Assembly: GCA_951406725.2 (NCBI GenBank)
Contig: OX597837.1
Span: forward strand, 8,618,001 to 8,682,000
Direction: 5' to 3'
Length of the DNA stretch: 64,000 nt
DNA from: Octopus vulgaris
Taxonomy: Eukaryota
Position numbers and translations under genes: made by a program. This document shows, piece after piece, positions 3,914 through 58,602 of this stretch. Position 1 is the first letter of the stretch; every line of letters begins with the position of its first letter. Under the pieces are notes generated by a model that saw nothing but the letters and a program-made list of their open reading frames with translations, did no database searches and was not told the DNA's origin.

Positions 3914-5561
3914 CACTTGCGTCAGAAATTAATTAGCACTTCTCAAATTTCTACATTTTCTTACATTTTCTTAACTTATTCAGAAACGAACACGTTTTTA
4001 ATCAAAAATTTATTAAAACATATCCCAGCATACCACATAATTGTTATTAATCGTGAAATTTAGTCAATATCTTGTTGCTCCTCCTTTGGCAGCAATGATA
4101 GCTGCTACGTGGGCCGGCATGCTGTCTATGAGTGCCTGCAGGTACTGTGCAGGGATGGCCCTCCATGCAGCAAGAAGTGCCCCAAACAGCTCGTGTCGGT
4201 TCCTGTATTGCTGCACATTCAAATCCCTACCCAATCGACTCCAGAGAGGTTCTCAGGTGAGGGTTCAGGGTCAGACCGTCATGGTCCTTGAAGAAACCGG
4301 TTGTGAGCTTGGCTGTGTGGGAAGGCGCGTTGTCCTGCTGGAGCACGTACTCCTCGCCACCAAAGAGGTATCCCGCTGAGGGTAGGGCAGCATTCCGTAC
4401 TATCTCAACGTACTTTGCTGCGTTAATGTTGCCTTCGACAGCATAGAGCCGCCCAACACCACTGTAGCTGAACGCCCCCCACACCATCAGACAACCCCTA
4501 CCATGCTTCATGGTGGGAGCAATGCAGTCTTTGTTGAAGCGCTCACCCCTGCGGCGTCGCACATGGACAGGCTTGTCACTGACGAGACTGAATCGCGACT
4601 TGTCAGTGAACATCACTGTCCGCCACTGCTGCACGGTCCATGTCTTGTGGGCACGGGCCCAGACCAGCCGCCTCTTCCGGTTTTGAGCTGTAAGACCAGC
4701 TTCCAGTAATCTCGTATTGACGGTGGTTGTAGACAACTGCTTCCCTGTCACCTTTTGCATCTCCTCCGCCAGTTGCCGGCTCGTTGCCATTCGGTTGTTC
4801 AGTGACTTTCGGATCAGCATCCGGTCCTCCCGCTGGGTCGTCAGCCTCTTCTGTCCCCTACCCTTTTTGTCAGCTGCTGATCCGGTTTCCTCGTATTTCT
4901 TAAATAAGCACTGAATTGTGCGCCTGGCTACACCAAGTTTTCTGGCTATTGCAGTCTCTGACAGCTTGCCACGCTACGTGAGAGCCTCGTACCGTCTCTC
5001 CAAGGTCATGCAAGGTCTTGGGCCCATTTAGGAATGAATGATAAAAAACAGTTATTTTCATTAAAACTATTCATTTGAATAATGTTATGCTATAACAAAA
5101 CTGCTATGAGTTATTATTCATTAAACAAAAAAGAAAGAAAGCAGAATTTCTCACCTTATTTGATGTATAACAGGGAAGTGATGTCACGAAGCAGAGTGTA
5201 GGAGAATTTGTGAGGAAAAAAAATCTTGCAAATACACAAATCAATTAACCTACAAGCTGTTCAAAATGTCTTACGCGATGAGAAAACTTAGTACGGTGTG
5301 ATTTCGGTCCTTGCAAGGCGCTACCTATATCTATTAAACAAAGGAAGATTTGTCTGCATCCGCACTCCAAGTTGTTGTTGCACTGCTATGTCAACATCAT
5401 TAGGCTGTAGACTTTCAAACCGCTCTGCAAACAAAGTTACGTCATCGTTCTGCGCAACAGTGAACTCGCAACAAAGCAATAGTTCGAGATATGGCCACTA
5501 GGTGACAGCACATACCTTGAGTGAAGAGCAAATCAAGGGTGCTAATTAATTTCTGACGGTA

Positions 5562-5657: not shown

Positions 5658-6069
5658 CGCAGGAGTGGACATGTGGTAAGTAGCTTGTTTACCAACCACA
5701 TGGTTCCGGGTTCAGTCCCACTGCGTGGCACCTTGGGCAAGTGTCTTCTACTATAGCCTCGGGCCGACCAAAGCCTTGTGAGTGGATTTGGTAGACGGAA
5801 ACTGAAAGAAGCCCGGCGGATATATATGTATATATATGTGCCTGTGTGTTTGTGTGTCTGTCTTTGTCCCCCTAACATTGCTTGACAACCGATGCTGGTG
5901 TGTTTATGTCCCCGTTACTTAGCGGTTCGTCAAAAGAGACCGGTAGAATAAGTACTGGGCTTACAAAAAAAAGAATAAGTCCCGTGGTCGAGTTGCTCGA
6001 TTAAAGGCGGTGCTCCAGCATGGCCGCAGTCAAATGACTGAAACAAGTAAAAGAGTAAATGAGTAAAGA

Positions 6070-6072: not shown

Positions 6073-6126
<54 letters not shown>

Positions 6127-6155
6127 CGAGAAAGAAGCAACAAGAATGGATTAGT

Positions 6156-6246
6156 TTTTAGTACAATTGTTTCATACAAAGACAGGCTTTATTACAAGTT
6201 GCAAAAATTGCAGCAGATAAAAGTGTCCCGTACTCATCAGCTAAAA
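6156..6246 (-). ncRNA. Type-I hammerhead ribozyme fold with canonical core (within ~6127-6510 insert)
   Basis: Minus strand TTTTAG-CTGATGA-GTAC...GTAT-GAAA-CAATTG-TA-CTAAAA: 6-bp stem I, long stem II, palindromic stem III, GTA triplet. Confidence 0.8.
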
Positions 6247-6647
6247 TACATATGAGTTCTCTAGATATCTTAGTGGGTGAGGTTATACTCATGAAATATT
6301 GGAGATAATTCCATTAGAGGCAGATATAGGTTGTAAACAGTTTTCCAAAGTTCCTTAATGATGATGTACAGTCTTATCACAAATTTTAAAAAACTTATTA
6401 GTTTCGAAGAGAAGATGAATCAATCCATAGTGTAGATTTAAATTTCCAGAGATATGAGGAGGAGGATGCACAGACTTATCGCAGGTTTTTAAAGACTTAT
6501 TAGCATCACAGAAAAGGTAGATACACACACACACACATACATATATAACATAGATAAATATTTATATACGTACATATTTTGGGGATATATACACCCATGG
6601 GTAGATGTGTGTCTTACTGCTGACGCTTCAGCTATTACATCTGCCTA

Positions 6648-10021: not shown

Positions 10022-10201
10022 ACTGATTATACTTACGTTGCAGCTGTTACGTCTGCTGGTAGTGCCCCCTCTAAAAGTACCACTAATGATAACGTACAAC
10101 AATAGCGTTAAGAACTACAAGCTTAACAATGATTGTAACGGTAGTGATAATAGTTGTCATATTAATAACCATGAGTCTATTAATAATAATAATAATAAAA
10201 A

Positions 10202-10944
10202 AACAAAATAAAACCATTGATCATGTTGTCTCCAAGTGCAGTCTTCTAGCGCCTACAGAGTATCTCAACAGGCATGATAGACCTGCACAATATATTCACT
10301 GGGTAATTTTCAAAAACCTGGATTTGCCCCATGAAAAAGACTGGTGGGAACACAAACCACCTCCAGTGCTTGAAACTGACCTCATCTCACTCCTCTGGAA
10401 CTTCACCATTCAAACTGACAGAAAGATAGATGTAAATAGGCTAGACGTCATATTGAAAGACTTCAGACAAAGAACATGCCTCCTCATTGATATGACTGTC
10501 CCAATCGATATAAACGTATCTGTCAAGACCTACGAAAAACTGAGCAAATATAAAGATCTTGAAATAGAAATCAGCAAAGTGTGGAACCTGAAAACTAAAA
10601 CAATACCTGTTGTCATAGGTGTCCTGGGAATGATAGCAAAAGGGTTGATTGCTACGTAACTCAGATACCAGGAAACCCCAAAATGGCAGAAATTCAAAAG
10701 ATAGTGCTCATGGGAACTGTTCATATCCTACGCAAAATACTTTCTATGTAATCTCAGGGTTTAAAACAAACATAATTTTGGGGTTTTTTTTTGACATTCA
10801 CATGTACAACACAAAAAGACAAACAAACAAATATATGACACACTAAGCATAACAACAACATGAACTTCCAACCTGTTGTCTCTTGAGGTCTCTGGGTGAG
10901 ACTTGGAGCCAACTTGTACAAATATAATGCAAAAGTCAAACATA

Positions 10945-11102: not shown

Positions 11103-11700
11103 ATGTGAAATTTGGATTAGAAAAATGTGCTAAAGCAACCCTGAAGAGAGGAAAACTAGTTAAGAATAGCAACATCACTATATAAAGCCAATGAAATAAG
11201 AGAATTAGACCAAAGCCAGCCATTTAGGAATTAACGAACTAGATATGATACAACATACACAAATGAAAGAGAAAATAAAGAAAGAATACTATAGATGAGT
11301 TAGATCAATACTGAAATCAGAACTCAATGCTGAAAACAAGATAATAGGTATTAACACTTTAGCCGTCCCAGTTATAAGTTGCAGCTACAATATCCTTAAC
11401 TGGAGACTAAATGAACTAAGTAAAATAGACTGCAAAACAAGAAAAATAATGACAGGATCTAAGATGCACCACTCAAAATCTGACATAGAAATGCTATATA
11501 TACAACGTATAAAAGGTGCTAGAGGCCTTATACATCTGGAAAACTATTATAAAATAACCACCATAAGACTGCAAAAATATCTACTTCAGAAGGAAGGGAA
11601 ACTAATACAAATTGTCACAAAACACGAGCTAAACAAAACAATGATTTCAGTATTTAAGGAAGCTGACACAAACAAAAAATCATACTACCTAACAAATATG
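11103..11700 (+). pseudogene. Older, distinct R4/Dong-type LINE fragment (RT C-terminal/thumb region)
   Basis: FGLEKCAKATLKRGKL...MKEKIKKEYYR*VRSILKSELNAENKIIGINTLAVPV...MHHSKSDIEMLY...GARGL parallels the 56950 ORF. Confidence 0.85.
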
Positions 11701-11789
11701 AAGAAGAAGGTAGAGGAGGAGGAGAAGAAGAAGAAGAAGAAGAAGAAGAAGAAGAAGAAGAAGAAGAAAAGAAGAAGAAGAAGAAGAAG

Positions 11790-11940
11790 ATATGAGAACA
11801 CCATATGACGCAAATGTGGTTGTGATGTATGTGCCTGGTGAACCCTTATCAGACGGTTAATTATGATGGGTATACTGGGATTCATATATTTGTACCCTAG
11901 TGTCACTTTGATGGCACGCATTGCTCTCTCACTCAATAAG
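11790..11940 (+). mobile_element. Possible 3' tail of an unclassified retroelement ending in a TAA/TGA array
   Basis: Unique segment between (AAG)n and (TGA/TAA)n, ending TGCTCTCTCACTCAATAA. Confidence 0.35.
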
Positions 11941-38477: not shown

Positions 38478-38866
38478 GTCATCCTATATGTTCTGTCCGA
38501 TTTTACCTTTGTTTAAACTGATTGAAATTTAATAGTATTTTAGAATGTCTAATAGAATTTAAAATTATTTTTATGCATTTGTGTAGCTTGAAAGTAATTA
38601 AATATTATTTTACTGAATAATAGAATTAAGATTTCTTTGATTAAAATCCTTTCTAACATAGAAGTATCGAAAGAGCATTTAAGCAACATAATGTTTTATG
38701 AGTACAAAAAAGGAATCTCTGCAGACGAAGCGACTCGAAACACACACTCAATGTACGGGAAAGAATGCTTGAATGAAAGGATTTGCAGAAGATGGTTTGC
38801 ATAATTCAGAAGTGGAGATTTCAGCCTTGAAGATGAAGATCGAACAGGACGTTCAGCTGAGTTTGG
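38473..38866 (+). mobile_element. Mariner left end with decayed transposase N-terminus
   Basis: TA|TCAGGTCATCC...TTCTGTCCG TIR-like start; 38658-38866 reads EVSKEHLSNIMFYEYKKGISADEATRN...ERICRRWFA*FRSGDFSLEDEDRTGR (Mos1-type HTH). Confidence 0.85.
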
Positions 38867-39401: not shown

Positions 39402-39461
<60 letters not shown>

Positions 39462-39463
<2 letters not shown>

Positions 39464-40023
39464 CAATTAATCAATATAGGGTAGTAAAAAATTCAATAGA
39501 AATTTATCGCCACCAGCGGTCTAGTGAGAAAAAGAAAATAGTCAAAGACTATATATATAAATTCAACAACAATTGAGGAATGGCCTTAATAGGCCATTCG
39601 ACCCACTAGAAAGAGCAGCCAGGACTCAAACCGTCAAGTAGTAGTAATTCAGAAATTAGAGAAAATTTAAAAACATTTACCCTAAATCATCTTTAGACAA
39701 TGCATCGTTTCGGTGTTTTTAATGGCAAACCAGCTTAATTAAATTAAATCAAGTCAATCCACCAAAGGCTACACCTCGTCGGTAAAGAGGCCAGGAGAGA
39801 CGGATATACACGAGGCATCTGTATCTATGCCCTAGGAATATCTGCCCTAAAATTTTCAAAACCATCGTACTCGCGCCAACTTATCAACAGTAAATATAAA
39901 CTGCTGATTCAATTTCAGAATTAGTCAGAAAAACATCAATTAATCAATATAGGGTAGCAAAGAATTCAATAGAAATTTATCGCCACCAGCGGTCTAGTGA
40001 GAAAGAAAAAATAGTCAAAGACT
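39462..40023 (-). mobile_element. 473-bp unit plus 89-bp terminal direct repeat, in (TA)n, containing a hammerhead (Penelope pseudo-LTR / retrozyme-like)
   Basis: ATCAATTAATCAATATAGGGTAG...GTCAAAGACT at 39462-39550 and 39935-40023; no ORF called. Confidence 0.8.
39690..39788 (-). ncRNA. Type-I hammerhead ribozyme fold, U4C core variant
   Basis: Minus strand TCTTTA-CCGACGA-GGTGT...ACACC-GAAA-CGATGCATTG-TC-TAAAGA: 6-bp stem I, 5-bp stem II base, near-palindromic stem III, GTC triplet. Confidence 0.8.
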
Positions 40024-40104
40024 ATATATATATACATACATAATAGTATGTATGTATATATGGATGTATAATTATATATATGAATAATTATAGATACATA
40101 ATTG

Positions 40105-40135
<31 letters not shown>

Positions 40136-40934
40136 ATAATCAGGCAAACTATAAGGTATCCTGTGTAGCTCTGCGTCGGCAAGACTCGGAAAATATAGAA
40201 AAATATAGGAGTACAGTGAACTTGCTGCAAAGAGTGGAATATCCAATGTTTCTGTTGTAATTGGCTGTCAGCGGGTAGAGTAAACGAGAAGTTGAAGTAA
40301 GATAGCGTTTACATCCTCTCGGTTTGAAAAATTGGCTGTCAGTTTTTCAAGATGACTGGTTGCAGATTTCTCTTTTTCTCTACCCTCTGACGAAAGATTA
40401 CATCCAAAACATTGGAAACCTTTCTCTCGAAGGCCAGTTTGTTATACCCCTTTCACTTTTAAATATATATGAATATACATCTAATATATGGGTAACATTT
40501 TCGAAAAATAATTTTATCAGTAGCCAGCATATTAAAATATATATCAAGGTGAAAATATAAACAATTATAAATAAGGGCAAAAGAAGTAAATTTCTATGCC
40601 AATATGCTGAAAAATAGACCTTAGATCATTTAACCACATACAATATTTATCACTATAAATACACAGCCTGGTGAAACAATGAAACGAGCTGTACACTTAA
40701 TCTCCTTTAATTTTAATCCTCCTCTGCTCATTTCGTTTTACCTGATGTGATTAAATTTATATTTCTCTAAATGATTTGGCCTGCTGTATCATTGCCAAAC
40801 GCCAATGTCCCGGTAGGTTTTTGTTTTCTTTCTATTAAAAGCCGAAGTTCAAACGCTTTTAGCTCAAATATCAGTATACAGACATATGTATATATACATG
40901 TACGTATACATAAATATATGTGTATATATATATT

Positions 40935-41297
40935 GGCGCAAGAGTAAGTAGCTTGCTTACGAACCACATGGTTCTGGGTTCATTCCCACTGCGTGGCACC
41001 TTGGGCAAGTGTCTTCTACAATAGCCTCGGACCGACCAAAGCATTGTGAATGGATTTGTTAGACGGAAACTGAAAGAAGCCCGTCGTATATATGTATAGA
41101 TATACATGTATGTGTGTCTGTGTTTGTCCCCTCTACATTGCTTGACAACCGGTGGTGGCGTGTTTACGTCCACGTAACTTAGCGGGTCGGCAAAAGAGAC
41201 CAATAGAAAAAAATACTAGGCTTCAAAAGAATAAGTTCTGGGGTGCTCCAGCATGGCCACAGTCAAATGACTGAAACAAGTAAAAGAAGAAAGAGTA
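40935..41297 (+). mobile_element. Family-B SINE (small deletions)
   Basis: Head, CORE-like segment and tail all match. Confidence 0.88.
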
Positions 41298-41725: not shown

Positions 41726-41728
<3 letters not shown>

Positions 41729-41873
41729 CCTTGCGGTTCGGCAAAAGAGACCGATAGAATAAGTACTGGGCTTACAAAAAGAATAAGTCCCGGGGTAGAG
41801 TTGCTCGATTAAAAGGCGGTGCTCCAGCATGGCCGCAGTCAAATGACTGAAACGAGTAAAATAGTAAAAGAGT
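41726..41873 (+). mobile_element. 5'-truncated family-B SINE
   Basis: GCGGTTCGGCAAAAGAGACC...GACTGAAAC inside (TA)n. Confidence 0.88.
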
Positions 41874-49091: not shown

Positions 49092-49134
<43 letters not shown>

Positions 49135-49812
49135 AAAGCAAAAAGAACGCAACAAGAACGTAACAGGCGACAGCAAAACATCCGGACAGTTGGACGATAC
49201 AAAAGCGGACAGGAAAAACAAGGAGGTGTCATTCGGAGCTTCCTATCATCTGTCGATTTCCAGATCGTCTTTGCAGTTTCGGCCGGTTACGCTCGAGACT
49301 GCTACAATCTGACCGGCAGCAAGAAAATCTAGCCTAAGAGCACTAGACTCCTTGGAAGGAAGCAAGTGAATATATACGGAAACAAGGACGGAAAAATGGA
49401 GAACTGGTACACAATTACAAATACAAACAACAATACATTAACAACAGGTGTCTTTCGACTAAGGACGAATGATATTAAGCTGGCTTGTATGGAGTAAAGA
49501 CTTACGGCTGGAACATGAGTGGGTAACGTCATGGGGAAACTATATAAGAGAAGGTACACGGATGGAAGTCGAACCAAAAAGAAAGGTCAGGCTTGGGGAA
49601 CACCGGTCACATGGAAGGAGAGGAGAGAGATAGAAGGCAGAGGGACTGAAGAATTAGGGAGGGAGAGAAAGTGAGGAAAAGAAAGCAAAGGGACAGAGTG
49701 AGGTAAAAGAGAAGGGAAAGTAATTAGAATGAAGGGATGGCCAAGAAATGTGTGAGAGGGGGAGCGAGGAAAAGTAATGGGGAAAGAACGAAGTCTTCCA
49801 TAAACAACTTTG
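49135..49812. mobile_element. Unclassified ~680-bp insert between (TA)n tracts
   Basis: Sharp boundaries with TA arrays, purine-skewed, higher GC than flanks; no recognisable protein. Confidence 0.45.
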
Positions 49813-56380: not shown

Positions 56381-58602
56381 ACCTATAGTTTTTTAACAGA
56401 CAGCAGCATATTCCCTAATGAACAGAAAGGATGTAAACGTGGATCCTACGGCTGTAAAGACCAACTACTCATCAATAAGATGATCTTAGAAGATTGTCAC
56501 AAACGACACAAAAACTTATCAATAGCCTAGATAGACTATAAAAAGGCTTTTGATAGCCTACCACATAGCTGGATTAGGAAATGCCTGGAAATGTATAAGA
56601 TAGCACCTACTCTGCGAAACTTCTTGACTGTAAGCATGAGATCATGGAGAACCACACTAACTCTGAACAGTGACAATGAATCCCTAAATGCTGGTGATGA
56701 AAAATTTCGTGTGGCATTTTCCAGGGTGACTTACTGTCACCACTCCTCTTTTGTTTATCCTTAATACCTCTCTCAAAGCTGCTCAATGACGCGCAGTACG
56801 GGTATAAAATGTTTGATAAAAATATAAATCATCTCATTTACATGGATGATTTAAAGTTTTTTTGCAAAAAATGACCAACAACTCAAGGGCTTACTAGCGA
56901 TAGTCAAACAATTCAGTGACGACATCAGAATGCAATTCGGCCTCGATAAATGTGCAAATCTACCTTTATCAAAGGAAAAATGACAGAAACATCTAACGTT
57001 AGCCTTGACCAGCAGAATGTCATAAAAGAACTAGACCCAGTAGAGAGCTACAAGTACCTAGGGGTAATTGAAGGGAACGGAATAAGGCATTCAGAGATGA
57101 AGGAAAGGATCAGGAGAGAATGTTATCGAAGAGTGAGAGCAATACTCAAGACAGAGCTGAATGCAAGAAACAGGATCGAAGCGATCAATGCATTAGCCAT
57201 ACCAGTCGTGACTTACAGTTTCAATATTGTTAACTGGTCAATTACTGAAATATGTCAGCTCGACAGAAAAATAAGGAGACTGTTGACAATGCATAGAATG
57301 CACCACCCCAAGGCAGATACAGAACGACTCTATCTCCCAAGAAAAGAGGGAGGCCGTGGTCTTTTGCAACTGGCAATAACAATGAAGATTGCTACAATTG
57401 GCCTAGACACCTACCTGAAAAAGTCTGAGGACTGGATGTTAAAACTTGTCTCAAAACATGAAAACAAGAAAGCATCATACTCAGTCACAAAACAGGCAAA
57501 GGAATATCTAAGTGAATTCCGAATACAACCAATTTCGGAATTAGAGATAGACATACAAGAAACAAGCATAGAAAAAGCTAGGCGCATGAAAACCCGTGCC
57601 AAAACTGCGGCCTTAGATATTCTGAATAATAAATGGCAAGAAAAACCTCTCTATGGCAAATACCCAAAGAGAGCGAATAATGCAGATATTGACAAAGCCC
57701 CGACCCATCAATGGCTAATGGCCTCTGGCTTAAAATCTGAAACAGAGGGGTTTATCATAGCAGCTCAAGATCAATGCCTACCAACAAGAAACTACCAGGC
57801 CAACATATTAAAGAACGGCAGTAGCCCAACATGTCGTGTATGCCGACAACAAAATGAAACCATTGATCATGTTGTCTCCAAATGCAGTCTTCTAGCGCCT
57901 ACAGAGTACCTCAACAGGCATGATAGAGCTGCACAATATATTAACTGGGTAATTTGCAAAAACCTGGATTTGCCCCATGAAAAAAACTGGTGGGAACACA
58001 ATCCACCTCCAGTGCTTGAAAATGACCACATCTCACTCCTCTGGAACTTCACCATTCAAACTGACAGGAAGATAGATGCAAATAGGCCAGACATCATATT
58101 GAAAGACTTCAGACAAAGAACATGCCTCCTCATTGATATGACTGTCCCAATCGATATAAACGTATCTGTCAAGACCTACCAAAAACTGAGCAAATATAAA
58201 GATCTTGAAATAGAAATCAGCAAAATGTGGAAGCTGAAGACTAAAACAATACCTGTTATCATAGGTGCCCTGGGAATGATAGCGAAAGGGACTGATTGCT
58301 ACCTAACTCAGATACCAGGAAACCCCAAAATGGCAGAAATTCAAAAGATAGTGCTCATGGGAACTGCTCATATCCTACGCAAAATACTCTCTATGTAATC
58401 CCAAGGTTTAAAACAAACTTTTTTTCCCTTTCTTTTTTGTTTTTTAATTTTATTGTTATGTATTAGACATTCACTAGTACAACACCAAAAAAATAAAAAA
58501 AAACAAATATATGGCACAGAACTTCCAGCCTGTTGTCTCTTGAGGTCTCTGGGTGAAACTTGGAGCCAACTTGTATAGAAATAAAGCAAAAGTCAAACAT
58601 AG
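56381..58602 (+). mobile_element. 5'-truncated R4/Dong-type non-LTR retrotransposon (RT + CCHC + restriction-like endonuclease) inserted in (TAA)n
   Basis: RT motifs EQKGC..GSYGCKDQLLI, IDYKKAFDS, GIFQGD..SPLLF, HLIYMDDLK with one stop and frameshifts; 3'UTR 58399-58602; TAA repeats on both sides. Confidence 0.95.
56950..58398 (+). pseudogene. Open C-terminal 482 aa of the LINE ORF (thumb, CCHC knuckle, PD-(D/E)xK endonuclease)
   Basis: YKYLG, GGRGL, CRVC...HVVSKC, RHD, RPDI..LLIDMTVP..KLSKYKDL; no true start because the upstream RT is frameshifted. Confidence 0.92.

What the first reader, a model, noticed from the sequence alone, without database searches (positions are those of the whole stretch)
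39462..40023. 473-nt ribozyme-containing unit with terminal redundancy: candidate retrozyme or Penelope pseudo-LTR
Seen: an insert between TA tracts equal to 1.19 copies of a 473-bp unit (89-bp direct repeats), with no called ORF and a well-formed hammerhead at 39690-39788 (6-bp stem I, GGTGT/ACACC, near-palindromic stem III, GTC). Slightly-more-than-unit-length copies are what reverse transcription around a circular or tandem RNA template would give. Both non-LTR retrozymes and Penelope partial-tandem ends have this layout. Inference: a non-autonomous element that may propagate via a ~473-nt self-cleaved, possibly circular RNA.
Basis: partly seen in the sequence, partly recalled or inferred. 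Interest (0 to 1): 0.85.

Follow-up and report, generated by a model that had tools for sequence, protein, structure and literature searches.

The report
Octopus hammerhead-bearing Penelope-type mini-element
A 562-base non-coding insert in what is probably octopus DNA is one copy of a many-copy parasitic repeat carrying a self-cutting "hammerhead" RNA motif with an unusually long side arm; the kind is known from many animals, and neither cutting nor an RNA circle has been shown for it.

Summary
In detail: a 562-bp insert between TA tracts, two 89-bp repeats 473 bp apart, no ORF, and a minus-strand type I hammerhead at 39690-39788 (0 of 3000 shuffles give one). Contigs of four public runs show a diverse multi-copy family whose unit closes on itself at 472-473 nt, with compensated ribozyme helices, truncated copies and ends in (TA)n; local duplication is refuted. 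The host is probably an octopus. Best reading: a non-autonomous Penelope-like element (retrozyme-type monomer) copied in trans by a TA-targeting PLE, Hydra clade the best fit, from a longer-than-unit template. "Retrozyme versus pLTR" is largely a false choice, since a 2026 preprint derives animal retrozymes from PLE ends. Cleavage, expression, a circle, true tandem arrays and the autonomous partner are not shown. Unusual: the long helix II, missed by Rfam and seen again in an unrelated insert in this window, and a subfamily that seems to have spread with U4C. New variant of a known kind; moderate interest.

The parts
39462..40023 (-). Whole insertion, 562 bp, read on the ribozyme strand as A1 - B - (TA)5 - A2
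   Evidence: only copy in the window
39935..40023 (-). A1, 5' copy of the 89-nt repeat; begins exactly where the unit's internal TA tract would lie
39560..39934 (-). B, unique part of the 473-nt unit, holding the hammerhead
39690..39788 (-). Type I hammerhead: helix I 39788-83/39695-90, core CCGACGA 39782-76 (U4C), helix II 39775-71/39716-12, GAAA 39711-08, helix III 39708-39697, predicted cut between 39696 and 39695
   Evidence: family variants
39717..39770 (-). 54-nt insert in place of loop II, with a 10+7-bp hairpin at 39764-39723
   Evidence: its outer 10 pairs have probabilities 0.5-0.9
39563..39599 (-). Two adjacent hairpins (9 and 5 bp) at the 3' end of B, just before the internal TA tract; candidate protein-binding or RT-start signal (inferred)
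   Evidence: z -2.94 for 39560-39625
39550..39559 (.). Internal (TA)5 tract at the unit junction
   Evidence: bridged by contigs of other copies
39462..39550 (-). A2, 3' copy of the 89-nt repeat (tail-like extension)
39405..39461 (.). (TA)n target tract at the 3' end of the element
40024..40138 (.). TA tract and TA/TACA microsatellite at the 5' end; no target-site duplication can be told apart

Best explanation
A dispersed copy of a non-autonomous Penelope-like element (a non-LTR-retrozyme-type monomer) in a probable octopus genome. The family unit is about 473 nt: a 5' part A, a 3' part B with a type I, dimer-type hammerhead 136 nt before its end, then a short TA tract. A longer-than-unit RNA (read-through of head-to-tail copies, or a circle made from it by two hammerhead cuts and ligation) is bound in trans by the RT/GIY-YIG protein of a (TA)n-targeting PLE, Hydra clade being the best match. 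The protein nicks a TA microsatellite, starts reverse transcription inside the template (here 89 nt into the next unit, giving A2), copies one whole unit and ends at the upstream TA tract, which can anneal to the target. Shown: anatomy, multi-copy family, closed unit, TA ends, truncation, compensated helices. Inferred: the enzyme and its clade, internal priming, TA annealing, the form of the template. I put a linear tandem template at about 0.6 and a circle at about 0.4 within this reading. This copy is aged and probably inert as a source.
For: (4 runs laid of 24 listed): 1025, 318, 25 and 66 contigs lie on one unit, spread over four identity classes; joints go back 467-471 with 2-5 letters between, i.e. 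period 472-473, in 4 of 4 runs (shorter side at least 31 letters in X9 and X12, 22-27 in X1 and X2); the A-TA-B junction is bridged by at least 31 letters each side in 3 of 4 runs among the 31 records listed; X9 record 25 runs B-TA-A-B, an order absent from the window's copy; X9 record 28 is a roughly 350-nt truncated copy with TA at both ends and its 3' end at the end of B. Helix III keeps pairing and a UGCA loop in variants (39706 makes a perfect palindrome in 65-100% of depth; two loose-end consensuses change pairs on both sides); a sister subfamily has the canonical CUGAUGA core. Helix III is unstable as a monomer but the segment pairs with itself over 12 bp, as in dimer-type PLE hammerheads (PMC4209133). 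Hydra-clade PLEs insert into (TA)n, carry type I hammerheads near the 3' end with 4-bp near-palindromic helix III starting AC, and include Hydra-1_Obim (PMC8557442 section 11 and files S1-S2); by eye two Hydra consensuses also run on past a TA-rich stretch after the ribozyme. Internal RT initiation gives PLE tails (PMC11167929). Host: the closest listed relative of a LINE ORF in the window is an Octopus bimaculoides protein, 77% against at most 63% for the other 119 listed. O. vulgaris has 31 recently active PLE families (PMC13282606).
Against: No autonomous partner found: no genome held, no PLE domain in 141 window frames scanned, no alignable likeness by eye to the Naiad_Obim/Ovul 3' ends or the Hydra-1_Obim 3' end. 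The 89-nt extension is longer than the usual 30-40-nt tail. Loop II is 54 nt against 3-10 nt in the Hydra ribozymes listed. Record 25 is one contig of depth 3 and could be an assembly merge across two A copies. No listed contig spans two ribozymes or the whole unit. Only 24 of 160 loose ends and 32 of 1455 pieces were shown, so attachment to an ORF is not excluded. 5' and 3' halves of the variant ribozyme come from different contigs, so helix I and II compensation is inferred.
Confidence: 0.8

Rival explanations
1. A true circRNA-producing non-LTR retrozyme: tandem master arrays are transcribed, cut by paired hammerheads, ligated into an abundant 473-nt circle, and the circle is the obligatory template (a stronger form of the best explanation).
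For: Closed 472-473-nt unit and record 25; compensated ribozyme; 36% GC; circular monomer folds better than shuffles, z -2.1, 62% paired; mollusc precedent in Mytilus (PMC7229834).
Against: One ribozyme at this locus; U4C lowers activity in vitro (PMC3088659); in the folded circle and the whole element the core is sequestered; 8 of 9 Xenopus dimers tested did not cleave; cleavage dispensable for PAc insertion; no array with two ribozymes seen.
Confidence: 0.3
2. A 5'-truncated end (pseudo-LTR plus tail) of an autonomous PLE, the 473-nt period being an internal feature of that element's terminus.
For: Most PLE hammerheads are single dispersed motifs from truncated copies (PMC4209133); ribozyme near a TA-bounded 3' end as in Hydra elements; two other inserts in the window look like such fragments.
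Against: A truncated autonomous copy should run upstream into ORF or 3' UTR, not return to its own tail after 473 nt; that return is seen in 4 of 4 runs; the share of laid contigs running on into unlike sequence is 0 and 0.03 in the two large runs, though these contigs are short.
Confidence: 0.12
3. A TRIM-like mini LTR element with A as an 89-bp LTR.
For: A-B-A layout with 95% identical direct repeats.
Against: No TG...CA ends on either strand; no PBS or polypurine tract seen by eye; type I rather than type III ribozyme, and not in the repeat; copies ending at B and truncated inside B, in TA tracts.
Confidence: 0.03
4. A single-copy local duplication with a chance ribozyme-like motif.
For: Only one copy in the 64-kb window; no Rfam hit.
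Against: 0 of 3000 shuffles; over a thousand variant contigs, both junctions in other copies, compensated helices.
Confidence: 0.01

Closest known systems
Metazoan non-LTR retrozymes (Cervera and de la Pena 2020, PMC7229834; Li, Clavereau and Pollet 2026, bioRxiv 10.64898/2026.07.22.740005), e.g. the 350-390-nt Mytilus units
   Same: Non-coding unit of a few hundred bases, type I hammerhead with weak palindromic helix III, GC under 50%, unit that closes on itself, many divergent copies; dispersed monomers are a recognised class in the preprint.
   Different: One ribozyme here, so not an 'active' retrozyme by the preprint's definition; 473 nt is above the 150-450 of the 2020 paper though inside the 51-972 of the preprint; 54-nt loop II insert and U4C; no circle or cleavage shown; no cephalopod case found in the searches run.
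Hydra-clade PLEs, including Hydra-1_Obim (Craig et al. 2021, PMC8557442)
   Same: (TA)n targets, type I hammerhead near the 3' end, 4-bp near-palindromic helix III starting AC, 3' ends either at a TA-rich stretch or beyond it (by eye in the supplement).
   Different: No RT/GIY-YIG ORF; loop II 54 nt against 3-10 nt; no sequence link established.
PLE pseudo-LTR and tail, Poseidon of Anolis (Frangieh et al. 2024, PMC11167929); minimal PLE hammerheads (PMC4209133)
   Same: Partial-tandem layout, optional 3' extension from internal RT start, AT-rich targets, dimer-type ribozyme.
   Different: Unit is 473 nt and non-coding; extension 89 nt; helix III present.
Non-autonomous Chlamys elements such as MRC1, and Naiads (PMC8557442)
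   Same: Non-autonomous PLE derivatives with pLTRs and head-to-tail copies; microsatellite targets; octopus and squid Naiads are flagged as having hammerhead core halves 35-50 nt apart.
   Different: Naiads and most Chlamys lack canonical hammerheads; this one is complete; no likeness by eye to the octopus Naiad 3' ends.

Membership tests
Type I hammerhead ribozyme | Three helices around CUGANGA and GAAA with an NUH triplet, helix I open | tested here: met
   All helices and GUC present; one core deviation, U4C; canonical core in a sister subfamily
Type I hammerhead ribozyme | Helices conserved through sequence change | tested here: met
   Helix III variants within single consensuses keep pairing; helix I and II compensation inferred across contigs; no formal alignment count
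Type I hammerhead ribozyme | Match to an Rfam hammerhead model | tested here: not met
   No hit up to E=10; the 54-nt insert is the likely reason (inference)
Type I hammerhead ribozyme | Self-cleavage | not testable with these tools
   Monomer fold disfavoured in silico
Non-LTR retrozyme | Small non-coding unit, GC under 50%, type I hammerhead | tested here: met
   473 nt, GC 0.36, longest frame 58 aa
Non-LTR retrozyme | [quoted passage not shown] | tested here: not met
   1.19 units, one ribozyme
Non-LTR retrozyme | Tandem multimers elsewhere in the family | tested here: inconclusive
   Unit closes in 4 of 4 runs; one contig runs B-TA-A-B; none listed spans two ribozymes
Non-LTR retrozyme | Expressed as linear and circular monomer RNA | not testable with these tools
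   Only assembled contigs were available
Non-autonomous Penelope-like element | Dispersed multi-copy family with partial-tandem layout, 5' truncation and alternative 3' ends | tested here: met
   (records 25, 26, 28 and loose ends; few examples seen)
Non-autonomous Penelope-like element | Insertion into (TA)n as in Hydra, Naiad and Neptune clades | tested here: met
   This copy; TA loose ends at 39466, 39562, 39576, 39895
Non-autonomous Penelope-like element | Terminal sequence shared with an autonomous RT + GIY-YIG element | tested here: inconclusive
   No genome; by-eye comparison with four published octopus consensuses found no alignable match, only two 8-nt matches near the Hydra-1_Obim 5' end that chance could give
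Autonomous PLE | RT and GIY-YIG ORF | tested here: not met
TRIM or plant-type LTR retrozyme | TG...CA LTRs, PBS, PPT, short target duplication, type III ribozyme in the repeats | tested here: not met
   Ends read AGTC...TGAT; type I ribozyme outside the repeats; PBS and PPT judged by eye

The most novel reading that the evidence does not exclude
Octopus genomes carry a large, overlooked class of long-helix-II hammerheads on several unrelated TA-targeting PLE derivatives, invisible to Rfam and to descriptors that cap loop II near 17 nt. This family makes an abundant 473-nt circular RNA, the first in a cephalopod, and its U4C and canonical subfamilies form a natural experiment on whether cleavage matters for PLE mobility. 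The 'half-core' motifs flagged in cephalopod Naiads may be decayed members of the same ribozyme type, which would weaken the view that Naiads lack hammerheads.
Probability: 0.25. Interest if true: 0.62.

Novelty: new variant of a known kind. Interest (0 to 1): 0.4.

Why it matters
What hammerheads do for Penelope-like elements is an open question in the papers read. A family with two natural core types, a dimer-type helix III and a closed unit lets one test whether cleavage and circularisation are needed for copying. Two unrelated long-helix-II motifs in 64 kb suggest that current descriptors undercount ribozymes in cephalopods. As a single locus it is an aged transposon copy of a known kind.

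Tried and rejected
No whole genome was held, so no copy count or partner search. Rfam: only microsatellite-driven miRNA hits among the 150 of 390 window matches listed and 4 chance hits on the element. A degenerate ribozyme pattern gave 5 metagenome loci, none similar to the element by blastn and none with the element's helix layout, and 0 viral loci; the prokaryote genome collection was not scanned. No RNA holder listed: the two laid runs marked RNA are guesses, so nothing is concluded about expression. Those two runs have no cover at 39790-39823, and several contigs join across a divergent middle; I read that as subfamily divergence, not as an RNA end. Summed depth was not used as copy number. 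No PLE domain in 141 window frames and no tRNA gene in the window. Three short element motifs searched in the Craig 2021 supplement gave one chance hit in a coding region. Earlier findings: none by sequence, place or the words octopus hammerhead. Lunse et al. 2017 on dimeric PLE hammerheads is not held. A plus-strand reading (two insertions, ribozyme antisense) was considered and dropped because the A-TA-B junction recurs in other copies. The supplement of PMC13282606 was listed, not read; the bioRxiv supplements are closed; either could bear on whether the family is already annotated.

Full report
Observation. The insert 39462-40023 lies between TA microsatellites. Its ends are two 89-nt repeats, 473 apart, with 4 mismatches, extending to 98 nt through a TA tract. 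It is the only copy in the window; its longest frame is 58 aa. On the minus strand it reads A1 - B - (TA)5 - A2, with a type I hammerhead in B at 39788-39690: 6-bp helix I, core CCGACGA, 5-bp helix II, GAAA, near-palindromic helix III and a GUC triplet, with the predicted cut 136 nt before the end of B. My descriptor found 2 such sites in the window, none of this completeness in 60 block-shuffled windows, and none in 3000 shuffles of the element. The descriptor was relaxed to admit U4C and long loops after I had seen the motif; the shuffles used the same rules.

The core has C at position 4; a paper passage says U4C considerably lowers activity in vitro yet suffices for a viroid (PMC3088659, passages). 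Loop II is replaced by 54 nt holding a 10+7-bp hairpin. Rfam does not detect the motif. As a monomer the catalytic fold is 3.9 kcal/mol above the free minimum; helix III pairs with probability 0.01 while the same segment pairs with a second copy over 12 bp, the pattern of dimer-type animal hammerheads (PMC4209133, results and discussion read). The insert holds one ribozyme, so this locus cannot release a unit-length RNA by two cuts.

Family evidence. No genome was held. Twenty of 24 listed runs hold part of the stretch, 11 with a share of at least 0.2, under four organism labels; the best share is 0.33, so this copy has drifted from its nearest relatives there. I laid four runs (X1, X2, X9, X12; four studies at most, labels A and B) on one unit: 1025, 318, 25 and 66 contigs, in X1 split 68/268/485/204 over identity classes from 99+ to under 90. 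Joints going back 467-471 with 2-5 letters between give a period of 472-473 in 4 of 4 runs; the shorter side reaches 31 letters only in X9 and X12. The other junction, A-TA-B, is bridged by that standard in 3 of 4 runs among the 31 records listed. X9 record 25 (222 nt, depth 3) runs B-TA-A-B, which the window's copy does not contain; this points to a tandem or circular molecule but could be an assembly merge. X9 record 28 is a roughly 350-nt copy with TA at both ends, truncated inside B and ending at the end of B. Further TA loose ends lie at 39466 and 39576 (the latter, 10 contigs, may be internal or terminal). Only 24 of 160 loose ends, 32 of 1455 pieces and 40 of 73 variant rows were shown.

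Ribozyme conservation. Position 39706 is changed in 65, 72, 100 and 100% of depth in the four runs, making helix III a perfect palindrome; two loose-end consensuses give other helix III sequences with both partners changed and the UGCA loop kept; the three commonest changes in the 3' strand of helix II stay able to pair, though they are plain transitions. Loose ends in X1 and X12 show a sister subfamily with canonical CUGAUGA and different helix I and II sequences; matching them to complementary 3' halves seen in X1 and X2 is my inference across contigs. Position 7 is U in all depth laid there (3 runs). A change at 39781, which would be U4, is not among the 40 rows shown, whose lowest peak share is a third; if rows are kept by share, most close relatives also carry C4. 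That is an inference about the table, not a count.

Host. A LINE ORF at 56950-58398 has, among named hits, only marine-animal and similar relatives at 56% or less among near-length proteins and an Octopus bimaculoides protein at 77% among shorter ones, against at most 63% for the other 119 listed. The window's SINE-like repeats also look like octopus SINEs, from recall. The host is probably an octopus; this is not proven.

Mechanism. PLEs form partial tandems and carry an optional 3' tail (PMC8557442, passages); in the Anolis element the tail comes from RT starting inside the template at an AT-rich nick, and ribozyme mutants insert normally (PMC11167929, main text). Hydra-clade PLEs target (TA)n and carry type I hammerheads near the 3' end with a 4-bp near-palindromic helix III beginning AC and loop II of 3-10 nt; one is described from O. 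bimaculoides (section 11 and supplement parts 2 and 53). The insert fits a non-autonomous derivative copied by such an enzyme: priming at a nicked TA tract, start 89 nt into the next unit, one full unit copied, end at the template's TA tract. The last three steps are inferred. The 4.5% difference between A1 and A2 agrees with identical repeats that aged with the rest of the copy, which differs from nearly all X1 depth at 4 of the shown positions and from over three quarters at 9. The template may be a tandem transcript or a circle; nothing here separates them. The circular monomer folds only moderately better than shuffles (z -2.1, 1 of 60 as good; opposite strand z -2.6).

Comparison. It works like a metazoan non-LTR retrozyme (PMC7229834, parts 2-4 of 6; PMC7761336, passages) and meets the size, GC, non-coding and ribozyme-type features, but fails the two-ribozyme criterion at this locus, so I file it as a monomer of a retrozyme-like, non-autonomous PLE family. 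The 2026 preprint (parts 1-3 of 5) derives such elements from PLE ends and found cleavage in 1 of 9 dimers tested. No partner was identified: by eye the element does not align with the Naiad_Obim and Naiad_Ovul 3' ends or the Hydra-1_Obim 3' end, and a comparison by program was not possible.

Novelty. Seven paper searches (listings, plus the papers named) showed no description of a cephalopod retrozyme or of PLE hammerheads with a loop II this long; the O. vulgaris repeat paper has 0 occurrences of 'ribozyme' in its main text. Loops of 29-35 nt are listed for spike-moss PLEs, and Craig et al. capped the spacer at 17 nt and flagged octopus and squid Naiads as having core halves 35-50 nt apart. 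Repbase, Dfam and subscription journals could not be checked, so the family may already be annotated as a Penelope or unknown repeat. A second, unrelated insert at 6126-6520 has the same long-helix-II layout with a canonical core, though its active fold is not predicted. Earlier scan notes report similar units in other genomes, unchecked.

Verdict. Real feature; non-autonomous PLE or retrozyme-type monomer, 0.8; circle as the working template about 0.3; new variant of a known kind; interest 0.4.

Noticed in passing
window 6126-6520 (-): Unrelated 400-bp insert between TG/TA tracts with a type I hammerhead at 6246-6156: canonical CUGAUGA, 60 nt between the core halves, palindromic helix III, cut 35 nt before the TA flank; internal 55-nt repeat at 76%. 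Active fold not predicted.
   Followed up: partly
window 49133-49812 (-): Insert between TA tracts with a pyrimidine-rich 5' part and a 3' end like that of the 6126-6520 insert (86% over 37 nt, partly TA); a decayed hammerhead-like stretch near 49270-49320 seen by eye did not pass the motif scan.
   Followed up: partly
window 56950-58398 (+), fragments at 10093-10659 and 11299-11808: 3' part of a LINE ORF with zf-RVT match; closest listed relative an Octopus bimaculoides protein at 77%. The R4/Dong-like label is from recall.
   Followed up: partly
window 4227-4973 (-) and 38598-38801 (+): Tc1-type transposase fragment and a mariner Mos1-type HTH fragment.
   Followed up: no
window 39466, loose end in run X9: Beyond a short TA tract the loose letters resemble the first 20 nt of A in the opposite orientation, suggesting two copies inserted tail to tail with a third kind of 3' end; one contig only.
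   Followed up: no
PMC8557442 supplement, Naiad_Esco and Naiad_Obim/Ovul 3' ends: By eye, Naiad_Esco has CUGAUGA, 45 nt, then GAAA and a UGCA-centred hairpin; the octopus Naiads have a decayed core with a paired helix II. Possibly decayed long-helix-II hammerheads; not tested.
   Followed up: no
window 40936-41130, 41177-41292, 41728-41868, 5690-6060: Recurrent short interspersed repeats next to TA tracts; resemble octopus SINEs from recall.
   Followed up: no
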